Made by a program: the position numbers and the translations under genes
Origin: a virus
Length of the DNA stretch: 64,000 nt
Strand: one strand, 5' to 3'
UHGV virus genome: UHGV-0286546
The notes under the pieces: model-generated
What the model saw: only the letters and a program-made list of their open reading frames with translations
What the model was told of the DNA's origin: nothing
Databases searched by the model: none
Shown: positions 5,009 to 44,731 of the stretch, piece by piece
How positions within the stretch are numbered: position 1 is the stretch's first letter
How the letters are laid out: the number at the start of each line of letters is the position of its first letter

Positions 5009-5335
5009 ATGCAAAAACCTGATTTTTTATCTTTTCGACATAATGATGCTGTAACAATACAAGATCTTCCCATAACTACCAGCGAAGTTGTCTTAAACGA
5101 ATGGAGGGATATAACGCTTTCGAATCAAGTTGTTACTTTTGATGATTTGACATCAGGAGAAAAAGTATATAAAGCTTTATTTATACATCTTTGTCGAATT
5201 CATCCAGAAAAAGAAGAAGACTATAAGACGTTACTGAAAATTTATAATGAAGATTACAGATTAACAGCCATAACTATTGAAAATGAAAATATGAAACAAA
5301 CATTAAATAAATTGAAAGAGACATTCGATGAATAA
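5009..5335 (+). CDS. Small protein, member of a 3-copy paralogous family in this window
   Basis: The C-terminal motif 'LLKIYNEDYRLTAITIENE' is shared with ORF 5328..5612 ('LLRLYNGDYRRAVITIETK') and ORF 44214..44591 ('CRIHRYDYRLAVLTYETK'). Confidence 0.45.
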   Translation: MQKPDFLSFRHNDAVTIQDLPITTSEVVLNEWRDITLSNQVVTFDDLTSGEKVYKALFIHLCRIHPEKEEDYKTLLKIYNEDYRLTAITIENENMKQTLNKLKETFDE

Positions 5336-5612
5336 TCATTTTGGAACAATGCCATATAATCCAAATTTTGCTTGTGACACAACTCCTGGCGCTAACGAAT
5401 CTTATGAAATATCACCGTTAGACATACAAATCTGCTATAAAAAGTTATTTGATATTTATAAAGGAGCTTTTCCGAATCAGGAAGGTGAATTTATAACGTT
5501 ACTTCGTTTATATAATGGAGATTATAGACGTGCAGTAATTACTATTGAAACTAAGTTACTAGAAAAAGAAGCAACTGAGATGAACGAATTGTTTGGAGCC
5601 AAGTTACCATAA
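5328..5612 (+). CDS. Small protein, tandem paralog of 5009..5335
   Basis: Shared Y-x-DYR-x-AV-x-T-x-ET motif. Overlaps its paralog's stop. Confidence 0.45.
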   Translation: MNNHFGTMPYNPNFACDTTPGANESYEISPLDIQICYKKLFDIYKGAFPNQEGEFITLLRLYNGDYRRAVITIETKLLEKEATEMNELFGAKLP

Positions 5613-5711
5613 ATTTGCTTTACAAAACACTTTCCTTATGTTATTATAAAAGTATGATAAAAATAAATTTATCATATTTTAGAAAAGGAAATAAAATAAG
5701 GAATAAAAATC

Positions 5712-6413
5712 ATGGTTTGCAAAGCATTAGATCGTAAATTAATTCGTGTATCAAAAGAACGAACAAAAAAAGTAGGTGTACGTAGTATAAATGACATTAT
5801 TAACAATACACCTAATCTTACTTTCGCTGAAAAAATCGCATACATTCGTCATCATTATACCTATTATGAGGGAAATTATCCTATGTTCCATCATAAAAAC
5901 GGTAAACCAAACGAAGTCAAAGCAGAACTCAATAATTTAATTGTAGATGTATTAAATAAAAAAGTACAGCCGGATGTTTTATCTGCATTTAATAAACGTA
6001 TTTTAGAATGGCGCAAAGAAAATAACATAGCAAATGAAAATATTGTTGACTCTTATATGCCAGTTGTTAATAAGCCTACTCCCGCTTGGAAACTTTCTGT
6101 TGAAACAGTTGAATCTGCTAAACCGTATATTTGTATAATTGATAAATACTTAAAGTCTTCTTTTAATGATTTAACAGATAAAGAAGAAGAAACTATTTCA
6201 TACAAAGAAATTAAGAAAAAAGCATTAGATTGGGTATATAATCTTTCCGAAGAAGAATTAGATAATTTAATTGCTTCTAATCGTATTTTAACTGATATTA
6301 AAGATAAATTGTTAAAAGCTAGAAATTATGAATACTCTTTAATTAAAGAAAAAATGAGACAATATGCAAAAGATTTAGGTTATTTAAATTCAGATCGAGC
6401 CTGTGCTGAATAA
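5712..6413 (+). CDS. Hypothetical protein
   Basis: Intact 233-aa ORF. No motif recognised. Confidence 0.3.
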   Translation: MVCKALDRKLIRVSKERTKKVGVRSINDIINNTPNLTFAEKIAYIRHHYTYYEGNYPMFHHKNGKPNEVKAELNNLIVDVLNKKVQPDVLSAFNKRILEWRKENNIANENIVDSYMPVVNKPTPAWKLSVETVESAKPYICIIDKYLKSSFNDLTDKEEETISYKEIKKKALDWVYNLSEEELDNLIASNRILTDIKDKLLKARNYEYSLIKEKMRQYAKDLGYLNSDRACAE

Positions 6414-6477
6414 AATTGTTTTACATATTTAAAAAACAGGATATTTTAAAATAGCTTGAATCAATAAGGAATACGTT

Positions 6478-6960
6478 ATGCTTAATTTCTATAAAAACTC
6501 AATCACAGTACCGTTTGTGGGTGGATTAGCTAGTTACGAGAAATTTGAACATGTACACGTGTATATTTATTATGATTGGTTAACTACTTATAAAACATTA
6601 GGATTAGTTTATAATTCAATTAAAAATTTATTCCTTGATAAAGAAAATATTGAGGTACCGGATAGTATTGGTTATGAAATTAAATTTTTAGACAAAGGAG
6701 CTGAAAATACCAAATTCGATCCTATTTTTAAGATTACTCGTAAAGATGGTGATACTGTTGCTCGTCATCAAGAAATATTAGCGGCAGTGGTATTAATTGA
6801 ATCATTAAACGAAATAAATAAAAAAAATTTAAATTTCAAAAGTACACCAGATCTTGATTTGTTATTAGCAACAATTCGCTTACAATACGCTTCTCCTTAT
6901 GATATGGGAAAGATATTAGCAATATTTTTTGATTCGGAGTTTGAAAAATGTTTTTCGTAG
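6478..6960 (+). CDS. Hypothetical protein
   Basis: ORF only. Confidence 0.3.
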   Translation: MLNFYKNSITVPFVGGLASYEKFEHVHVYIYYDWLTTYKTLGLVYNSIKNLFLDKENIEVPDSIGYEIKFLDKGAENTKFDPIFKITRKDGDTVARHQEILAAVVLIESLNEINKKNLNFKSTPDLDLLLATIRLQYASPYDMGKILAIFFDSEFEKCFS

Positions 6961-40070: not shown

Positions 40071-40766
40071 ATGAGTGACGATTTTCCTAAATATTGGACC
40101 GAAGAAGAAGTAAATCCAGAAACAGGCGAAATTTATGATAATTCTACTGCTTTAATGCCCGTTGTAGAAGAAGAAGCTCCTTTACCTACTATAGCGGAGC
40201 AAAGAGAAATTGTAAACGAAGCAACGGATGTATCCAAAGAAAGTAAATCTATGCTCAACAGCCTCATAGAAATGAATACCGTTGCTCAAACTCTTGCTGC
40301 TATCCGTACAAATGAAACTGCTGAACAAAGACGAAACGTAATTACTGCATGGAGCGAAAACTTTATAAACGCCAGAATGCAAAACAACGTATCTGCTGAA
40401 TTACTCAAACAAAAATTACTCGAACGTCTAATTCAAAATCTTCCTAACCTTGACCTAGAAACTACTGCTAGAATCTACAATGATTTAACAGACGTTTCTT
40501 CAGTCGACGCACAACAAGCCTTCTCTGCAATTACCGGTGGTGGCGCGGCTGTTCCTGGAAATTCTGGAGGCATCTCTCTAACGATAAATAATGCAACGAG
40601 TGAAGGAGCTACAATTACAAACAATACTCTAAATGCTAGCCCTCAACAAGTCGGTCAACTAAAAGAAGTCAATACTTTAAACTCTTCAATAAAAGCCTGG
40701 AATAACATGCCCTTACCAAAGAAAAAAGTAATAGATACAGAATACATTGAAAATAAAAAAGATTAA
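40071..40766 (+). CDS. Putative terminase small subunit
   Basis: Acidic 231-aa protein immediately upstream of the large terminase. The call rests on position only. Confidence 0.3.
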   Translation: MSDDFPKYWTEEEVNPETGEIYDNSTALMPVVEEEAPLPTIAEQREIVNEATDVSKESKSMLNSLIEMNTVAQTLAAIRTNETAEQRRNVITAWSENFINARMQNNVSAELLKQKLLERLIQNLPNLDLETTARIYNDLTDVSSVDAQQAFSAITGGGAAVPGNSGGISLTINNATSEGATITNNTLNASPQQVGQLKEVNTLNSSIKAWNNMPLPKKKVIDTEYIENKKD

Positions 40767-40808: not shown

Positions 40809-42890
40809 ATGGAAGATTTACCATTAGAAATTGAAGAAAAAATAGAACAATTACCGATTTTACCTTTTGAAATAAACGAAGAATTTCAAGAGCTTATGTT
40901 TTCTGACTTGTTTTCTGATATTTTCAATTTTTATAAAGAAAATTATTTACCAGATACACTTAAAACAAAATCAGAAATTTATCAAAGAATAAGTTTGTAC
41001 CTAAATCTTACCGGACAAGGCGATAAATTTACAGAAGAAACTGATAAACTCCTTTGGCGAAGACCTTGCCCTGATATTCATACCTTCTTGGCAGATAAAT
41101 TTTACATGGGATATAACAACAGTACTTTGTATCCATTCTGGCGTGAAAAACTAGAGTACATGTTTAGAGATTCTTCACCTGTTAGAAAAGCTATATTTTC
41201 GGGTTGTATAGGATCTGGTAAGTCGACAGTAGCTCGTAAAGCCTTCGTATACGTTCTATATCGCTTACTTTGTTTACGCTATCCACGCTCTGTACTTAAT
41301 ATTGACCAAGATGCTACAATTGCAAACGTCGTTATTGCTACAACTCTGAAACAAGTGTATGAAGTTAATATTCTTCCATTTATTAAACTTATGGAAACAA
41401 TGCCTTGCTTTCAAAGAGTTATGTCACAGAGGTCCTTTGAAAACTTTAATCTCGAAGATCCTCTTTGCCCTATACCTTTTTATTTTGAAAAAAGCAGTGG
41501 TACAATACATTTTCCTGACAATATTATTTTAACCAGTGGTAGTCAACCGACACACTTTACTGGTATGAATGTCATTAATTCATTCTGCTTCACAGAAACT
41601 ACAAAAGTATATACAAACGTTGGAACAATTACATTTGCTTCATTATTAACGCGTTTTAATCGTAAAGAAAAAATATATACATATACTATAGACAAAAACG
41701 GAAATAAAGAAAAAAGTTTAATTACAGACGTTAAAGTAACCGGGTATAAAACAGATTTAATTAGAATCTATTATGAGGATGATAGATATATCGAATGTAC
41801 TCCAGAACATCCTTTTGTAATATCTAATCCAAAAGAGAACGATAAACATGTAATATATGAAAACGGAATCCCATACAAACAAGCTCAATACTTAACAGAA
41901 GAAGATGAAATAGTATCCGAAAAACATGCCTTTGTTTATGAATTAATTGACAATCGACCAGATTCGGCATATTTCAACAAACCGTTTTATATTGGAATAA
42001 GTACGCATGATAATACGCTTGTAAAGTCACATTCTGTTAAATTTTTAAGACCTTACTCACATTTTACAAACAAATCACTAAAAAATGAAGCGAATTTAAT
42101 AAAAAAGAGTATTATTACAAAGATTTTGACAGCAGGTTTGAAACCAAAAATAAATATCATAAAAGAAAATTTAACTTTACAAGAAGCATATACTTTAGAA
42201 AAAGAATTGATCAATAAATATGGAAAAAGATATGACAATTCCGGAATATTAGCAAATATAAGTTCAGGTGGGGAAGGTATAATACTAACTACTCCGGATA
42301 TAATTAAAAGAAAAAGTGAAAATATAAAGAAAACTAAAGCAAAAATTCGTGCGCAAAAAATCGCCGAAAAACAACAAGAATGGGATACTTTGATAAGTAG
42401 TATATCTGGACGTTTGGCTATAATGATCGTATGCTTGCAATACATTGACGCTGTTCGGAAACGTTACCAACAAGGTGCTAATTCACCGCATAAGAAAGAA
42501 GTATCGAGGCAAAATATGATTAAATATAATAAATCAGAAGAACATAGAAAATTAACAGCGTATTATAATTCCATTCGTCCAAAAGTTTCTTCTAAAGAGA
42601 GTAGAGAAAAATTAAGTAAAAGCCAAAAAGAAGCATGGCGTAGAAAACCAATAGAAGAAAAAAGAGAAGTCAGTATCGGAAGAAGTTTAACAAATGCTTG
42701 GAATGTTTTACAAAAAATAGAAGGAAACAAAATTAACTCAAAGATTTTTAATGCTCATAGAATACCAAAAACTATGCATTCACGTACCGATCCTTGCTGG
42801 GAAACCTTGGTTAAAAAAATAGGAAGTGTTGAAAAGTTTTTAGATATGGTTAATAAAAAATACGGTAAGAGGTTTATATATGAAGATTAA
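40809..42890 (+). CDS. Terminase large subunit N-extein fused to intein N-lobe plus GIY-YIG/NUMOD endonuclease
   Basis: Terminase Walker A 'SGCIGSGKST'. The intein starts at Cys 41586 ('CFTETTKVYT') with block B 'TPEHPF'. A GIY-YIG core ('FVYELID...FYIGIS') and NUMOD-like DNA-binding repeats ('SEEHRKL...SKESREKLSKSQ') follow. Confidence 0.75.
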   Translation: MEDLPLEIEEKIEQLPILPFEINEEFQELMFSDLFSDIFNFYKENYLPDTLKTKSEIYQRISLYLNLTGQGDKFTEETDKLLWRRPCPDIHTFLADKFYMGYNNSTLYPFWREKLEYMFRDSSPVRKAIFSGCIGSGKSTVARKAFVYVLYRLLCLRYPRSVLNIDQDATIANVVIATTLKQVYEVNILPFIKLMETMPCFQRVMSQRSFENFNLEDPLCPIPFYFEKSSGTIHFPDNIILTSGSQPTHFTGMNVINSFCFTETTKVYTNVGTITFASLLTRFNRKEKIYTYTIDKNGNKEKSLITDVKVTGYKTDLIRIYYEDDRYIECTPEHPFVISNPKENDKHVIYENGIPYKQAQYLTEEDEIVSEKHAFVYELIDNRPDSAYFNKPFYIGISTHDNTLVKSHSVKFLRPYSHFTNKSLKNEANLIKKSIITKILTAGLKPKINIIKENLTLQEAYTLEKELINKYGKRYDNSGILANISSGGEGIILTTPDIIKRKSENIKKTKAKIRAQKIAEKQQEWDTLISSISGRLAIMIVCLQYIDAVRKRYQQGANSPHKKEVSRQNMIKYNKSEEHRKLTAYYNSIRPKVSSKESREKLSKSQKEAWRRKPIEEKREVSIGRSLTNAWNVLQKIEGNKINSKIFNAHRIPKTMHSRTDPCWETLVKKIGSVEKFLDMVNKKYGKRFIYED

Positions 42891-43008
42891 AAAAATAGAA
42901 AAAATACACCTAGATGAACCTGTACCAGTGTATGATTTAACTGTAGAAAATGAAAATCACAACTTCGCATTGAGCCTAGACGATGGTACTATTGCGTTTG
43001 CCCACAAT
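41586..43008 (+). mobile_element. Intein with embedded GIY-YIG homing endonuclease inserted at the terminase Walker B (fractured/split into two ORFs)
   Basis: The N-extein ends 'VINSF', and the C-intein 'VYDLTVENENHNF...IAFAHN' precedes the C-extein 'CDEIND'. The spliced junction 'INSFCDEI' reconstitutes a Walker B like T4 gp17 'IYIDECAF'. The C-lobe sits in a different frame and has its own AAGAGG RBS plus ATG at 42880. Confidence 0.7.
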
Positions 43009-44253
43009 TGTGATGAGATCAATGATTACGGTAGTGTCGAAAGTACAATCGCATTATTAAATACCCTAGATAACAGATTTTCTAGTAGATTTTCTAATGT
43101 GGATTTGGTATTTCAAAGCGTTGTGAGTTCGGCTCGTACAACCAATTCTGCTTTGGGTGAGTATGTTCGTCACTTACCACAAAATGACCCTTCTATTCTA
43201 AAATTAAATCCAATGTTGTGGGAAGTTAAACCAGACCCAGACTTTAAAGGAGACGGTACAACTTTTCCAGTAATGGTAGGCAATGGTAGTATTCCGTCTA
43301 AAATTATTACTGACCCCGGTGAATTAAAAGCTATAGAAGAAAGTAAGTATGAACCACCAGCTGGATGTATTTTAATTAATGTACCAACAATCTTTCGTTC
43401 TAAATTCGAATTACAATTAGATCAATCGATACAAGATATTGCAGGTATAACTACAGATGATGACAACAGTGTATTTCGTGATACTACACAATTAGAAGAT
43501 ACTCGGCTTAATCCTGAATTTGTTTTAGAGGTTAACATAAGAGATAATACAAACATTCTTGACTTATTAAAGCAATACGATTTGTTTGAAATGAACTTGA
43601 ATAATACTTGGCAATTTAAAAGAGCACCGAAAGCAGATCGTTATGGGCATGTAGATTTAGCCGGCGGTGGTTCTGATGGACAATGTGACGCTGCCGTTTG
43701 TATTTTACATAAAGAATATCAGTATAATGAAGTAACTAAGTTGAAAGATATAATTTATGTAGTTGATTTATTATTAGCCATTAATGCAAAGAATAAGGTT
43801 GATATAAAAGCTATTCAAAACTTTTTAATTGATTTAGTAGTAGAAAGAAATATACCTATTCATACTATAACGGCAGATCAATGGCAAAGTTTGATGTTTT
43901 TACAGACTTTAGAGGCATCGGGTTGTTTTAGTAAGGTTGACAAATTATCTGTAGATACCAAGTTAGAGCCTTATACTAATTTAGCTACAATGTTAGAGCA
44001 AGGACAAGTTAAAGTAGGTAGTTGTCCTAAACTTAAAAAAGAATTAGAAGCATTAATATTAGATAAAGGTAAAGTAACACGTACGACAGAACTTAAAGAT
44101 TTAGCAGATGCATTAGTAGGTGCTGTATGGAATGCTCAATTAAATTATACAGATGTACCTATTTATGAATATACTAAACCAGAACTTAAAACAAGAGTAC
44201 TTACGTATACAGATTATATAGATTCCTCCTCCGAATTATTATGTGATTTATAG
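42880..44253 (+). CDS. Intein C-lobe (43 aa) + terminase large subunit C-extein (nuclease domain)
   Basis: Intein blocks F/G 'VYDLTVENENHNF' and 'AHN' are followed by the +1 Cys at 43009-43011. The C-extein continues the terminase. Confidence 0.7.
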   Translation: MKIKKIEKIHLDEPVPVYDLTVENENHNFALSLDDGTIAFAHNCDEINDYGSVESTIALLNTLDNRFSSRFSNVDLVFQSVVSSARTTNSALGEYVRHLPQNDPSILKLNPMLWEVKPDPDFKGDGTTFPVMVGNGSIPSKIITDPGELKAIEESKYEPPAGCILINVPTIFRSKFELQLDQSIQDIAGITTDDDNSVFRDTTQLEDTRLNPEFVLEVNIRDNTNILDLLKQYDLFEMNLNNTWQFKRAPKADRYGHVDLAGGGSDGQCDAAVCILHKEYQYNEVTKLKDIIYVVDLLLAINAKNKVDIKAIQNFLIDLVVERNIPIHTITADQWQSLMFLQTLEASGCFSKVDKLSVDTKLEPYTNLATMLEQGQVKVGSCPKLKKELEALILDKGKVTRTTELKDLADALVGAVWNAQLNYTDVPIYEYTKPELKTRVLTYTDYIDSSSELLCDL

Positions 44254-44591
44254 AATTTTGTTTCATATGTTAATACAGCCAATCTATAATCATAACGATG
44301 GATTCTACACAGAGTCTGTAATTCTTCAGCTTGTTCTTTAGAATCATTTTCCAAGTACCATTCGTAGAGACTTCTGTATAATTCTTGAGGAGTAGGTTTA
44401 TTATATTTTCTTTCATATAAGGTATCTTCGATCTTATTTAGAATGCTATCACTTGTTTTAGCAACATCACCTAAAGATTCTGAACAGTAATCCAACGAGT
44501 CTAACACTTTGTCCATTTTTTCAAGTAGCTCACTTGGAACTTCAAATATAATCGGGTGACTGTGCATTGCTATATCTTCCTCTTCTGACAT
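44214..44591 (-). CDS. Small protein, third member of the 5009/5328 paralog family
   Basis: C-terminal 'CRIHRYDYRLAVLTYETKFY' motif. Confidence 0.4.
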   Translation of the reverse strand: MSEEEDIAMHSHPIIFEVPSELLEKMDKVLDSLDYCSESLGDVAKTSDSILNKIEDTLYERKYNKPTPQELYRSLYEWYLENDSKEQAEELQTLCRIHRYDYRLAVLTYETKFYKSHNNSEEESI

Positions 44592-44731
44592 TTCAACCTC
44601 AAAATTTGTTTTACTTTAATTTCAATTTATAATAATGATTTTTGATTGTAAAGCAAATTATTATTCTCTTTTAATCAACTTCTGCTTTTTATCTTTTTTG
44701 ATTATTGGATTTTTTAAAGGTTCTATAATCT

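What the first reader, a model, noticed from the sequence alone, without database searches (positions are those of the whole stretch)
40809..44253. Large terminase interrupted at its Walker B motif by a GIY-YIG-containing intein that is broken into two reading frames
The N-extein (40809-41585) ends '...GMNVINSF'. An intein then begins with Cys ('CFTETTKVYT', block B 'TPEHPF') and runs directly into a GIY-YIG nuclease core ('FVYELID...FYIGIS') plus NUMOD-type DNA-binding repeats. It hits a stop at 42890.

A new ORF in the +1 frame starts at 42880 with its own AAGAGG-N7-ATG. That ORF encodes exactly a 43-aa C-intein ('VYDLTVENENHNF...IAFAHN') followed by the C-extein 'CDEIND...'. Splicing would regenerate 'INSFCDEI', which is equivalent to the T4 gp17 Walker B 'IYIDECAF'.

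Inteins normally carry LAGLIDADG or HNH nucleases, so a GIY-YIG intein is rare. The two-ORF arrangement resembles the fractured-gene split inteins described from metagenomes. If it is real, packaging ATPase activity would depend on protein trans-splicing.
Basis: partly seen in the sequence, partly recalled or inferred. Interest (0 to 1): 0.8.

Follow-up and report, generated by a model that had tools for sequence, protein, structure and literature searches.

The report
Split terminase intein carrying fused nuclease
A gut phage's essential DNA-packaging enzyme is encoded as two overlapping genes that a split self-splicing protein element (intein) must stitch together, and unusually the element's GIY-YIG homing nuclease is fused in frame to its front half, a half-way form between two known gene arrangements.

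Summary
ORF1 (40809-42890) is the TerL N-extein, then a 113-aa N-intein, then a 321-aa GIY-YIG nuclease. ORF2 (42880-44253) is a 43-aa C-intein followed by the TerL C-extein. It starts at a conserved ATG with a Shine-Dalgarno site and overlaps ORF1 by 11 nt.

This is not a sequencing frameshift. The same layout occurs in about 31 ORF1 and 42 ORF2 protein clusters that are 36-80% identical, and in independent assemblies. Near-identical phages (98.7% DNA identity) carry an uninterrupted TerL that lacks exactly bases 41586-43008.

The arrangement is a variant of the "fractured genes" of Dassa et al. 2009. The difference is that the nuclease is fused in frame to the N-intein rather than free-standing. 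Relatives at the same site show the empty site, a three-ORF form (1-nt indel), a decayed-nuclease form and a re-fused cis mini-intein. Trans-splicing and nuclease activity are inferred, not shown.

The parts
40809..41585 (+). TerL N-extein (259 aa), the ATPase N-part. Walker A GSGKST lies at about 41202-41228. It ends ...GMNVINSF.
   Evidence: Walker A residues are invariant in alignments A4 and A5. The segment is collinear and 98.6% identical with the first 777 nt of the intein-free terL in L020. PF27249 MJ0330_N is recorded for homologs.
41586..41924 (+). N-intein (IntN, 113 aa). Cys1 is at 41586-41588 and block B TPEH at 41799-41810. It ends in the acidic stretch YLTEEDEIVSEK.
   Evidence: The Hint profile hits the NrdJ-1 and DnaE inteins. 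Pfam Intein_splicing matches profile positions 23-96. C1, T and H are invariant in 31 clusters. Mean pairwise identity is 0.64, against 0.69 for the extein.
41925..42890 (+). GIY-YIG homing-endonuclease module fused in frame to IntN (321 aa plus TAA). The catalytic core lies at about 41931-42293, followed by a variable helical linker and a conserved C-terminal domain ending KRFIYED*.
42867..42872 (+). Shine-Dalgarno-like AAGAGG, 7 nt upstream of the ORF2 ATG, embedded in the nuclease coding sequence.
   Evidence: An equivalent purine-rich motif (GGAAGGA, AAAGGA, AAGGAG, TAGGAGG) sits at the same distance in all related split loci, although it encodes different residues there.
42880..42890 (+). 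11-nt overlap ATGAAGATTAA, holding the ORF2 start codon and the ORF1 stop codon (translational coupling).
   Evidence: The same 11-nt overlap is present in L007, L013-L019 and L021. In the cis mini-intein of L010 this ATG is ATA.
42880..43008 (+). C-intein (IntC, 43 aa): MKIKKIEK...VYDLTVENENHNF (block F)...AFAHN (block G).
   Evidence: Pfam Intein_splicing matches profile positions 122-155. It aligns to the Npu DnaE and NrdJ-1 IntC. In 42 clusters the terminal Asn is invariant and the penultimate residue is His or Lys.
43009..44253 (+). TerL C-extein (414 aa plus stop). It starts with Cys+1, then Walker B D-E (43012-43017), then the rest of the ATPase and the nuclease domain.
   Evidence: tblastn to annotated TerLs. 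It is 100% identical to residues 260-673 of the intein-free P0041. The nuclease domain is modelled with high pLDDT and hits TerL nucleases.
41586..43008 (+). The whole mobile element (1,423 nt): IntN, nuclease, stop/start junction and IntC. It is absent from near-identical phages.
   Evidence: The BLAST and ungapped comparison with L020 breaks exactly here. Five near-identical empty alleles (four distinct sequences) are known.

Best explanation
This is a naturally split, class-1 intein inserted one residue before the Walker B Asp-Glu of the large terminase of a ~240-kb AT-rich gut phage.

The gene is transcribed as one unit and translated as two polypeptides. ORF1 gives N-extein, IntN and a GIY-YIG nuclease. 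ORF2 gives IntC and the C-extein. ORF2 initiates at an ATG with its own Shine-Dalgarno site that lies inside the nuclease's last codons, so the two are translationally coupled.

IntN and IntC then associate across the canonical split site, which is the loop where homing-endonuclease domains sit in contiguous inteins. They trans-splice to give a 673-aa TerL with the junction ...VINSF-CDEIND..., identical to the TerL of intein-free sister strains. The by-product is a non-covalent IntN-nuclease/IntC complex. It presumably acts as the homing endonuclease that cuts intein-less terL alleles during co-infection and so spreads the element.

Shown here: the anatomy, the folds, the exact insertion boundaries, conservation of the two-ORF layout and of all catalytic residues, presence/absence polymorphism, and purifying selection on the exteins.

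Inferred: translation re-initiation, trans-splicing, nuclease activity and homing.

In evolutionary terms it is a fractured gene in the sense of Dassa et al. 2009 whose nuclease gene has lost its 5' boundary (fused in frame to IntN) but kept its 3' boundary (own stop plus the downstream start).
For: Anatomy.

Not an error:
- About 31 ORF1-type clusters of 622-693 aa all end F[IV]YE[DNI].
- 42 of the 120 best ORF2-homolog clusters are IntC+C-extein ORFs starting at the same Met.
- The 11-nt overlap and SD are present in all loci examined.
- L021 (another study, a 480-kb contig) is 100% identical over 3,445 nt. L019 differs at 45 nt but has the same frames.

Intein:
- The profile hits NrdJ-1 at E 3e-10 and Npu DnaE at 4e-5.
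- Cys1, TxxH, the terminal Asn and the +1 Cys/Thr are conserved.

Exact insertion:
- The L020 empty site has 98.6-98.8% identical flanks.
- The in-silico spliced TerL differs from L020's TerL by 1 aa in 673, with 30 nucleotide differences.

GIY-YIG. TerL.

Recent mobility: the window and L019 differ at 40 of 2,022 extein sites but only 5 of 1,423 intein sites, and the exteins are mosaic irrespective of intein status.

Constraint on the element: IntN identity is 0.64, the GIY-YIG core 0.55 and the nuclease C-terminal domain 0.66, against 0.69 for the extein.

Forms that cannot be rescued by any frameshift still keep intact intein halves: L016/L017 (three ORFs) and L022 (double stop after IntN plus a 48-aa nuclease remnant).

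Precedent for the mechanism: Dassa et al. 2009, PMC2677866; TerL inteins splice and must do so for packaging, PMC5050341.
Against: There is no experimental evidence of splicing, of re-initiation at 42880 or of DNA cleavage.

Pfam's own GIY-YIG and Intein_splicing models score below their curated cut-offs on the window proteins.

Thirteen of the split clusters have Lys instead of the usual penultimate His. This is tolerated in some inteins (my own knowledge), but it is not proof of activity.

The homing signature is weak. Only one flanking site (-1, TTC versus TTT) co-segregates with the element among 7 alleles.

Only 64 kb of the genome was available, so a second, intact terL elsewhere in the genome is not formally excluded. 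None exists in the window.
Confidence: 0.8

Rival explanations
1. A sequencing or assembly frameshift within 42844-42890 has artificially broken an ordinary contiguous intein with an in-frame nuclease domain.
For: The two frames overlap in an A-rich stretch (an A6 run at 42855-42860 and an A7 run after the stop), where homopolymer errors are common.
Against: The identical two-ORF layout appears in dozens of clusters 36-80% identical, from many samples and assemblers. The A-runs are not conserved, whereas the ATG, the SD and the stop are. L021 is identical to the window and L019 nearly identical, and both are independent assemblies. No contiguous nuclease-containing version was found in any search. 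The only contiguous form (L010) lacks the nuclease and has ATA in place of the ATG.
Confidence: 0.01
2. Programmed +1 (or -2) ribosomal frameshifting near the ORF1 stop produces a single cis-splicing precursor. The ATG would then be incidental.
For: An SD-like element lies upstream of a stop codon, superficially like the prfB +1 frameshift site (my own knowledge). The overlap region is highly conserved.
Against: There is no conserved slippery sequence. The codon before the stop is GAT, AAT or ATT, whose +1 frame codon is not cognate. In P0029 the stop lies three codons later. The Met codon is conserved in all 42 split clusters but is Ile (ATA) in the one contiguous relative. The L016/L017 and L022 layouts have further stops that a single shift cannot bypass, yet they retain intact intein halves.
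Confidence: 0.04
3. The two polypeptides are not spliced. Either the intein halves only act as an affinity clamp that assembles a two-piece terminase, or this terL is a decaying pseudogene complemented by another copy.
For: Fractured phage genes can work without splicing, for example Aeh1 NrdA, cited in PMC2677866 and PMC3045599. 13 of the 42 split clusters lack the penultimate His.
Against: The break lies inside the Walker B strand, one residue from the catalytic D-E, so about 480 extra residues would sit in the active site. Published mapping of TerL inteins on the pentamer suggests assembly is unlikely with an intein present (PMC5050341). All splicing nucleophiles and the terminal Asn are conserved over deep divergence. 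The exteins show 1 non-synonymous change among 30 differences against the empty allele. No second terL occurs in the window.
Confidence: 0.06
4. Splicing works, but the GIY-YIG module is no longer an active homing nuclease. The element would then be inherited vertically or moved only by general recombination.
For: The flanking co-conversion signal is minimal, with one site. Decayed (L022) and nuclease-less (L010) derivatives show that the module can be lost. Pfam does not recognise the domain.
Against: The catalytic residues are invariant, and both the core and the C-terminal domain are conserved almost as well as the extein. The intein is about 5-fold less diverged than its exteins between two strains, and it is polymorphic among strains about 99% identical.
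Confidence: 0.2

Closest known systems
Fractured genes: split inteins with an intervening free-standing GIY-YIG or Vsr-like homing endonuclease gene (Dassa et al. 2009, PMC2677866)
   Same: A phage housekeeping gene is split into adjacent co-oriented ORFs, each carrying an intein half. The split lies at the endonuclease-insertion loop. A GIY-YIG nuclease is encoded between the halves. The nuclease 3' end overlaps the IntC start codon (6-69 bp there, 11 bp here). A terminase is among the hosts. The closest solved intein, NrdJ-1, matches at E 3e-10; from my own knowledge it belongs to that data set.
   Different: Here the nuclease has no 5' boundary. There is no stop after IntN and no start codon of its own, so it is translated as N-extein-IntN-nuclease, giving two ORFs rather than three. 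Dassa's model only postulates such a transition (step IIIa). Their terminase example is split atypically, with a 122-aa C part, whereas this one is split canonically. The three-ORF form does exist in relatives (L016/L017) and differs by a 1-nt indel.
Thornevirus (Bacillus phage SP-15, Listeria phage LIS04) fragmented terL
   Same: These are cultured phages whose TerL is split in the Walker B strand by a homologous split intein. It is 27% identical to the window's intein, has the same split point, and its IntC starts MKV...
   Different: The insertion point is three residues upstream (..RDIF|CGLLDE versus ..NSF|CDE). The intervening gene is an unrelated 230-aa ORF in SP-15, or a PD-(D/E)xK-type endonuclease in LIS04, and is not fused to IntN. 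The N-extein is additionally fractured. The database records annotate the pieces separately.
AceL-TerL and GOS-TerL natural split inteins
   Same: These are naturally split inteins in phage large terminases from metagenomes, with trans-splicing demonstrated experimentally (PMC11766414).
   Different: They are atypically split, with an IntN of 25-37 aa and an IntC of 104-115 aa, and have no fused nuclease. Here IntN is 113 aa and IntC is 43 aa.
Mycobacteriophage TerL inteins, site TerL1-e in Walker B (Kelley et al. 2016, PMC5050341)
   Same: An intein sits in the Walker B motif of TerL. Splicing is required to build the active site, and a P-loop site is also used. Relatives here (L008, P0036, P0160) also carry a Walker A intein.
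   Different: Those are contiguous cis-splicing inteins. The 2025 actinobacteriophage survey found LAGLIDADG nucleases in most inteins, plus HNH, Vsr-like and endonuclease VII-like ones. They occur in unrelated TerL families.
I-TevI-type GIY-YIG homing endonucleases
   Different: I-TevI is encoded in a group I intron and is free-standing as a protein. This one is covalently attached to an intein half and to half of its host protein until splicing occurs. NUMOD modules were not detected in the window protein.

Membership tests
Intein (Hint domain, class 1) | N-terminal Cys/Ser nucleophile (block A) and block B T-x-x-H | tested here: met
   Cys260 and TPEH are present. C, T and H are invariant in 31 clusters.
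Intein (Hint domain, class 1) | Blocks F and G: C-terminal Asn (usually His-Asn) followed by a +1 Cys/Ser/Thr | tested here: met
   The window has ...AFAHN|C. Across 42 clusters Asn is invariant, the penultimate residue is His in 29 and Lys in 13, and +1 is Cys in 35 and Thr in 9.
Intein (Hint domain, class 1) | Sequence or profile similarity to the Hint fold | tested here: met
   The profile of IntN+IntC hits the NrdJ-1 intein at E 3e-10, Npu DnaE at 4e-5, and other inteins. Pfam Intein_splicing gives only sub-threshold but complementary hits.
Intein (Hint domain, class 1) | Precise in-frame interruption of a host protein that exists uninterrupted elsewhere | tested here: met
   L020, L023-L026 and L005 have ...NVINSF-CDEIND... 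uninterrupted. The DNA alignment breaks exactly at 41586 and 43008.
Intein (Hint domain, class 1) | Protein splicing activity | not testable with these tools
   This needs expression and detection of the ligated exteins.
Naturally split intein / fractured gene (Dassa 2009) | Host gene in two separate ORFs, each with one intein half, split at the endonuclease-insertion loop | tested here: met
   The IntC start aligns with the start of Npu DnaE IntC, and with the position where the L010 mini-intein is continuous.
Naturally split intein / fractured gene (Dassa 2009) | Free-standing endonuclease ORF between the halves, with its own start and an upstream stop ending the IntN ORF | tested here: not met
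   In the window, IntN runs straight into the nuclease with no stop and no in-frame start. The feature is met in relatives L016/L017 and, as a remnant, in L022.
Naturally split intein / fractured gene (Dassa 2009) | Endonuclease 3' coding end overlaps the start of the IntC ORF | tested here: met
   An 11-nt overlap ATGAAGATTAA is conserved in all split loci. Dassa et al. report 6-69 bp.
GIY-YIG nuclease superfamily | GIY-YIG alpha/beta fold | tested here: met
GIY-YIG nuclease superfamily | Catalytic residues: Tyr of GIY, Tyr-x-Gly of YIG, Arg, His/Tyr, Glu, Asn | tested here: met
   Y6, F22-Y23-G25, R43, H47, E93 and N112 are invariant in alignment A2, and they align in register with the PDB GIY-YIG proteins.
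GIY-YIG nuclease superfamily | Match to a curated GIY-YIG profile (Pfam) | tested here: not met
   No Pfam GIY-YIG hit at E<=10 for the window protein or for 12 family members. Free-standing relatives found with the family profile do hit PF22945 LEM-3_GIY-YIG, up to E 2e-12.
GIY-YIG homing endonuclease (I-TevI type) | NUMOD-type DNA-binding modules downstream of the catalytic domain | tested here: inconclusive
   NUMOD3 hit 1 of 12 members, and not the window protein. More distant free-standing relatives have NUMOD1 or NUMOD3, but outside the region aligned to this family. The model shows long helices plus a small C-terminal domain.
GIY-YIG homing endonuclease (I-TevI type) | Site-specific cleavage of the element-less allele, and homing | not testable with these tools
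   Indirect support only: presence/absence polymorphism among ~99% identical strains, and 5 of 1,423 intein differences against 40 of 2,022 extein differences.
Large terminase (TerL) | N-terminal ASCE ATPase plus C-terminal RNase H-like nuclease fold | tested here: met
   Foldseek gives HK97 TerL at 6.8e-8, T4 gp17 at 4.5e-5, and the G20c, P74-26, RB49 and HCMV terminase nuclease domains. tblastn hits annotated TerLs.
Large terminase (TerL) | Walker A GxxxxGK[ST] and Walker B hhhhDE, with the intein inside Walker B | tested here: inconclusive
   GSGKST and D261-E262 are invariant, and the D-E is preceded by V-I-N-S-F-C. The ATPase core of the model has pLDDT below 50, and the sequence profile finds no solved TerL, so the assignment rests on sequence pattern alone.

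The most novel reading that the evidence does not exclude
The in-frame IntN-GIY-YIG fusion is a stable, functional architecture and not a transient accident. That would make it the first GIY-YIG nuclease that is covalently part of an intein fragment, and a living intermediate on the long-postulated path by which free-standing homing endonuclease genes become intein domains.

One phage clade holds, at a single insertion site, every state of the cycle:
- the empty site;
- the three-ORF fractured gene;
- the half-fused two-ORF form;
- the decayed-nuclease split form;
- a contiguous mini-intein regenerated from a split ancestor by deletion between short direct repeats.

A further possibility is that tethering the nuclease to the unspliced TerL N-half delays or gates nuclease release until IntC is made.
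Probability: 0.55. Interest if true: 0.72.

Novelty: new variant of a known kind. Interest (0 to 1): 0.62.

Why it matters
**Evolution of inteins.** Two models describe how free-standing homing endonuclease genes become in-frame intein domains: Dassa et al. 2009, step IIIa, and the frame-shifting route proposed in the 2025 actinobacteriophage intein preprint. In both, the step itself is inferred. This clade offers sequence-level snapshots of it. A 1-nt indel separates the free-standing from the fused nuclease. A ~135-nt deletion between direct repeats turns a split intein back into a contiguous mini-intein.

**Phage biology.** DNA packaging in a widespread group of gut jumbo phages would depend on protein trans-splicing. 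About 38% of the sampled TerL clusters carry the element.

**Practical use.** This is a canonically split natural intein related to NrdJ-1, with Cys or Thr at +1 and many natural variants, so it is a candidate for the protein-ligation toolbox. The nuclease is a new long-target GIY-YIG enzyme whose natural target (the empty terL site) is known.

Tried and rejected
- Megablast of the region against GenBank phages found nothing.
- Exact look-ups of ORF1 and ORF2 found nothing. Near-identical cluster representatives (P0001, P0040) later gave loci.
- A single-sequence phmmer of the nuclease against the PDB gave nothing meaningful.
- PHROGs gave only one family of unknown function.
- A viral-contig scan with the intein+nuclease peptide patterns gave no relatives.
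- A TerL sequence profile against the PDB gave only a spurious tRNA-ligase hit.
- Structure-based verification of Walker B failed, because the ATPase core of the TerL model has low confidence.
- A clean co-conversion tract was sought and not found. The three-way comparison suggested that sites -1 and +15 travel with the element, but with seven alleles only -1 holds, so I do not claim a homing tract.
- Paralogs of the nuclease or the intein, a second terL, and tRNAs were searched for in the window. None was found.
- I considered whether P0020/L018 shows the element at a second TerL site. Its C-extein is the Walker B one, so it is more likely a chimera.

Full report
**1. The observation**

ORF1 is at 40809-42890 (693 aa) and ORF2 at 42880-44253 (457 aa), both on the + strand, with ORF2 in the +1 frame. 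All quoted peptide strings are present. So are the AAGAGG-N7-ATG and the 11-nt overlap ATGAAGATTAA. The ORF2 frame is open only from 42844, so a hypothetical frameshift would have to lie within 42844-42890.

**2. Is the two-frame layout real?**

Yes, on three lines of evidence.

- A search with the intein+nuclease part returned about 31 clusters of full-length ORF1-type proteins (622-693 aa, 36-62% identical in that part). All of them end ...F[IV]YE[DNI].
- A search with ORF2 returned 120 best clusters. Of these, 42 are IntC+C-extein ORFs that start at the same Met, 68 are uninterrupted TerLs of 668-676 aa, and 2 are truncated intein-free fragments.
- In every split locus whose DNA I read (L007, L013-L019, L021), ORF2 starts 11 nt before the ORF1 stop. 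A purine-rich SD lies 7-8 nt upstream of the ATG, although the residues it encodes in the ORF1 frame vary.

The DNA around the overlap is the best-conserved stretch between the window and L007, whereas the A-runs that could have caused an error are not conserved. L021 comes from a different study and a 480-kb contig, and it is identical to the window over all 3,445 nt. L019 differs at 45 positions and keeps the same frames.

**3. Identity of the parts**

*Terminase.* The C-extein matches annotated large terminases by tblastn. An AlphaFold model of P0041 (the intein-free allele, 100% identical in the C-extein) hits HK97 TerL (E 6.8e-8), T4 gp17 (4.5e-5) and several TerL nuclease domains.

Walker A (GSGKST) and a D-E pair right after the insertion point are invariant down to 30% identity. 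The hydrophobic run V-I-N-S-F-C before D-E fits a Walker B strand. The ATPase core of the model is poorly predicted and no solved TerL is reachable by sequence profile. The Walker B assignment therefore rests on the sequence pattern.

*Intein.* Pfam Intein_splicing gives weak but complementary hits: the N half of the profile on ORF1 and the C half on ORF2. I joined IntN and IntC in silico, added the natural mini-intein of L010 and the SP-15 pair, and searched with that profile. It hits the NrdJ-1 intein at E 3e-10, then the Npu/Ssp DnaE split inteins and other inteins. Cys1, block B T-x-x-H, the terminal Asn and a +1 Cys or Thr are conserved throughout.

An exhaustive profile search finds 14,252 relatives. 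Nearly all of the top 150 are free-standing proteins of 110-380 aa, and some of those match Pfam LEM-3_GIY-YIG, NUMOD1 and NUMOD3. NUMOD modules in the window protein itself remain unproven.

**4. Exact boundaries and the empty site**

L020 is a 178-kb contig from another sample. It is 98.6-98.8% identical to the window on both sides and lacks exactly 41586-43008, which is 1,423 nt. The in-silico spliced TerL differs from L020's TerL by one residue in 673, while the DNA differs at 30 positions. The exteins of the split allele are therefore under the same purifying selection as an ordinary terL. Four further near-identical empty alleles were read.

Between the two intein-bearing strains (the window and L019), the exteins differ at 40 of 2,022 sites but the element at only 5 of 1,423. 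The exteins are recombination mosaics irrespective of intein status. This indicates that the element shares a more recent ancestor than its host genes, as expected for a mobile element. A co-conversion tract could not be shown, since only the -1 site co-segregates.

**5. Variants at the same site in the same phage clade**

- (a) Empty site: L005, L006, L009, L011 and L020.
- (b) The two-ORF form of the window, with several nuclease subtypes of 625-693 aa.
- (c) A three-ORF fractured gene, L016/L017: a 372-aa N-extein+IntN, a 261-aa free-standing nuclease, and a 457-aa IntC+C-extein. It differs from the fused form by a single extra base at the IntN/nuclease boundary, which turns the TATGAT of Tyr-Asp into a start codon in the new frame.
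- (d) L022: IntN ends in a double stop, and only the last 47 codons of the nuclease survive, with the stop/start junction intact.
- (e) L010: a contiguous 156-aa mini-intein. Its linker EEGNSS-I-KIKK is the IntC-frame reading of the nuclease 3' end. It equals L022 minus about 135 nt lost between two GAAGGA(C)AATTC repeats, with ATG changed to ATA. This cis intein therefore descends from a split one.
- (f) A second, unrelated intein in Walker A, either HNH-type or mini: L008, P0036 and P0160. P0160 carries both elements.

Per-domain conservation across 31 ORF1 clusters shows constraint on the element. Identity is 0.64 for IntN, 0.55 for the GIY-YIG core and 0.66 for the nuclease C-terminal domain, against 0.69 for the extein. 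Only the linker is free, at 0.32.

**6. Mechanism**

The most likely sequence of events is as follows. ORF1 and ORF2 are co-transcribed, and ORF2 is translated by coupled re-initiation. IntN and IntC associate and trans-splice to regenerate ...NSF-CDE.... The IntN-nuclease/IntC complex is released and cuts empty terL alleles in co-infecting phages.

The anatomy, folds, conservation, polymorphism and selection are shown here. Re-initiation, splicing, cleavage and homing are inferred from established knowledge of class-1 and split inteins, of GIY-YIG homing endonucleases, and of the need for TerL inteins to splice (PMC5050341).

The rivals are unlikely for the reasons given in their entries. They are an assembly error, a programmed frameshift, a non-spliced two-piece enzyme or pseudogene, and an inactive nuclease.

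**7. Comparison with what is known**

Dassa et al. 2009 (PMC2677866) described 26 metagenomic fractured-gene loci. In these, split-intein halves flank a free-standing GIY-YIG or Vsr-like nuclease gene whose 3' end overlaps the IntC start, and one host is a terminase. The window shares all of this except one defining feature: the nuclease is not free-standing, because it is fused in frame to IntN.

That state corresponds to half of their hypothetical step IIIa. It also fits the route proposed in a 2025 preprint on actinobacteriophage inteins, in which a free-standing nuclease is shifted into frame by 1-2 bp indels. That survey lists in-frame LAGLIDADG and HNH nucleases, and Vsr-like or endonuclease VII-like ones out of frame or antisense. 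For GIY-YIG it cites only the fractured-gene context. My literature searches found no report of a GIY-YIG module translationally fused to an intein part. The library searched is incomplete, so this is not proof of absence.

Three other precedents are relevant. TerL inteins in Walker B are known as cis inteins. Natural split TerL inteins (AceL-TerL, GOS-TerL) are atypically split and carry no nuclease. The cultured Thornevirus phages SP-15 and LIS04 carry a homologous split intein three residues upstream in the same strand, with unrelated intervening genes. Their database records annotate the pieces separately.

**8. Verdict**

It is a new variant of a known kind (fractured gene / natural split intein), not a new category. 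Its interest lies in three things:

- the in-frame IntN-GIY-YIG fusion;
- its abundance in a gut jumbo-phage clade;
- the unusually complete series of evolutionary states at one site.

Noticed in passing
window 44279-44593 (minus-strand ORF 44214-44591, 125 aa, overlapping the 3' end of terL): This is a hypervariable cassette. L019 differs from the window and L020 at a very large share of positions here, while the flanks are ~98-99% identical. It looks like an allelic gene replacement directly downstream of terL. The function is unknown.
   Followed up: no
L012 1-3060 (IMGVR_UViG_3300037067_027643, 285 kb): A family-B DNA polymerase is fractured by a free-standing GIY-YIG gene (…ELYENKKD*). 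The gene's 3' end overlaps by 20 nt a downstream ORF starting MKIKKIEKGKQIDYINYIDTDS. The junction has the same style as in terL, but no obvious IntC is present. The RFC-like gene at 5284-6723 of the same locus contains a stretch similar to this IntC.
   Followed up: partly
L008 4075-7242; P0036 / L022 1024-2589; P0160: There is a second intein site in the same TerL family, inside Walker A (GxIG|C...HN|[CS]GKST). It carries an HNH-type nuclease in L008 and P0160, and is a mini-intein in P0036. P0160 has both this cis intein and the split GIY-YIG element.
   Followed up: partly
L018 164-3395 (P0020, 3.5-kb contig): The N-extein is the end of a different TerL nuclease domain (...KIDHPVA|CFVGDTKIKL...). 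It is joined within the intein, near block B, to this family's nuclease, IntC and Walker B C-extein. This is either a chimeric assembly or a recombinant between two intein alleles that share the nuclease.
   Followed up: partly
L002 (Bacillus phage SP-15) 1-5467; L001 (Listeria phage LIS04) 1784-5458: Thornevirus terL is in at least three pieces. A PD-(D/E)xK-type endonuclease gene interrupts the N-extein in SP-15, or the start of IntN in LIS04. A split intein lies in the Walker B strand. The GenBank records annotate the pieces as unrelated or hypothetical proteins.
   Followed up: partly
L022 2577-2735 versus L010 (mini-intein linker): A 48-aa ORF in L022 is the surviving C-terminal tail of the nuclease, and it nearly matches the C-terminus of the free-standing 338-aa P0161. 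L010 lacks this segment through a deletion between GAAGGA(C)AATTC direct repeats, which regenerated a contiguous intein.
   Followed up: yes
window 41585 (third base of the last N-extein codon): The codon is TTC in both intein-bearing alleles and TTT in all five near-identical empty alleles (four distinct sequences). It is the only flanking site that co-segregates with the element. It could be a minimal co-conversion mark or part of the nuclease target or immunity, but the sample is too small to tell.
   Followed up: partly
window 1-64000 and related loci L019-L021: The window is 31% G+C and has no tRNA genes. Relatives sit on contigs of 160-257 kb (one of 480 kb) from human and animal gut metagenomes. 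The region upstream of terL carries genes whose products hit the SHMT and F420_ligase Pfam families. A conserved 231-aa ORF (40071-40766) immediately precedes terL in all loci and may be the small terminase, which was not tested.
   Followed up: no
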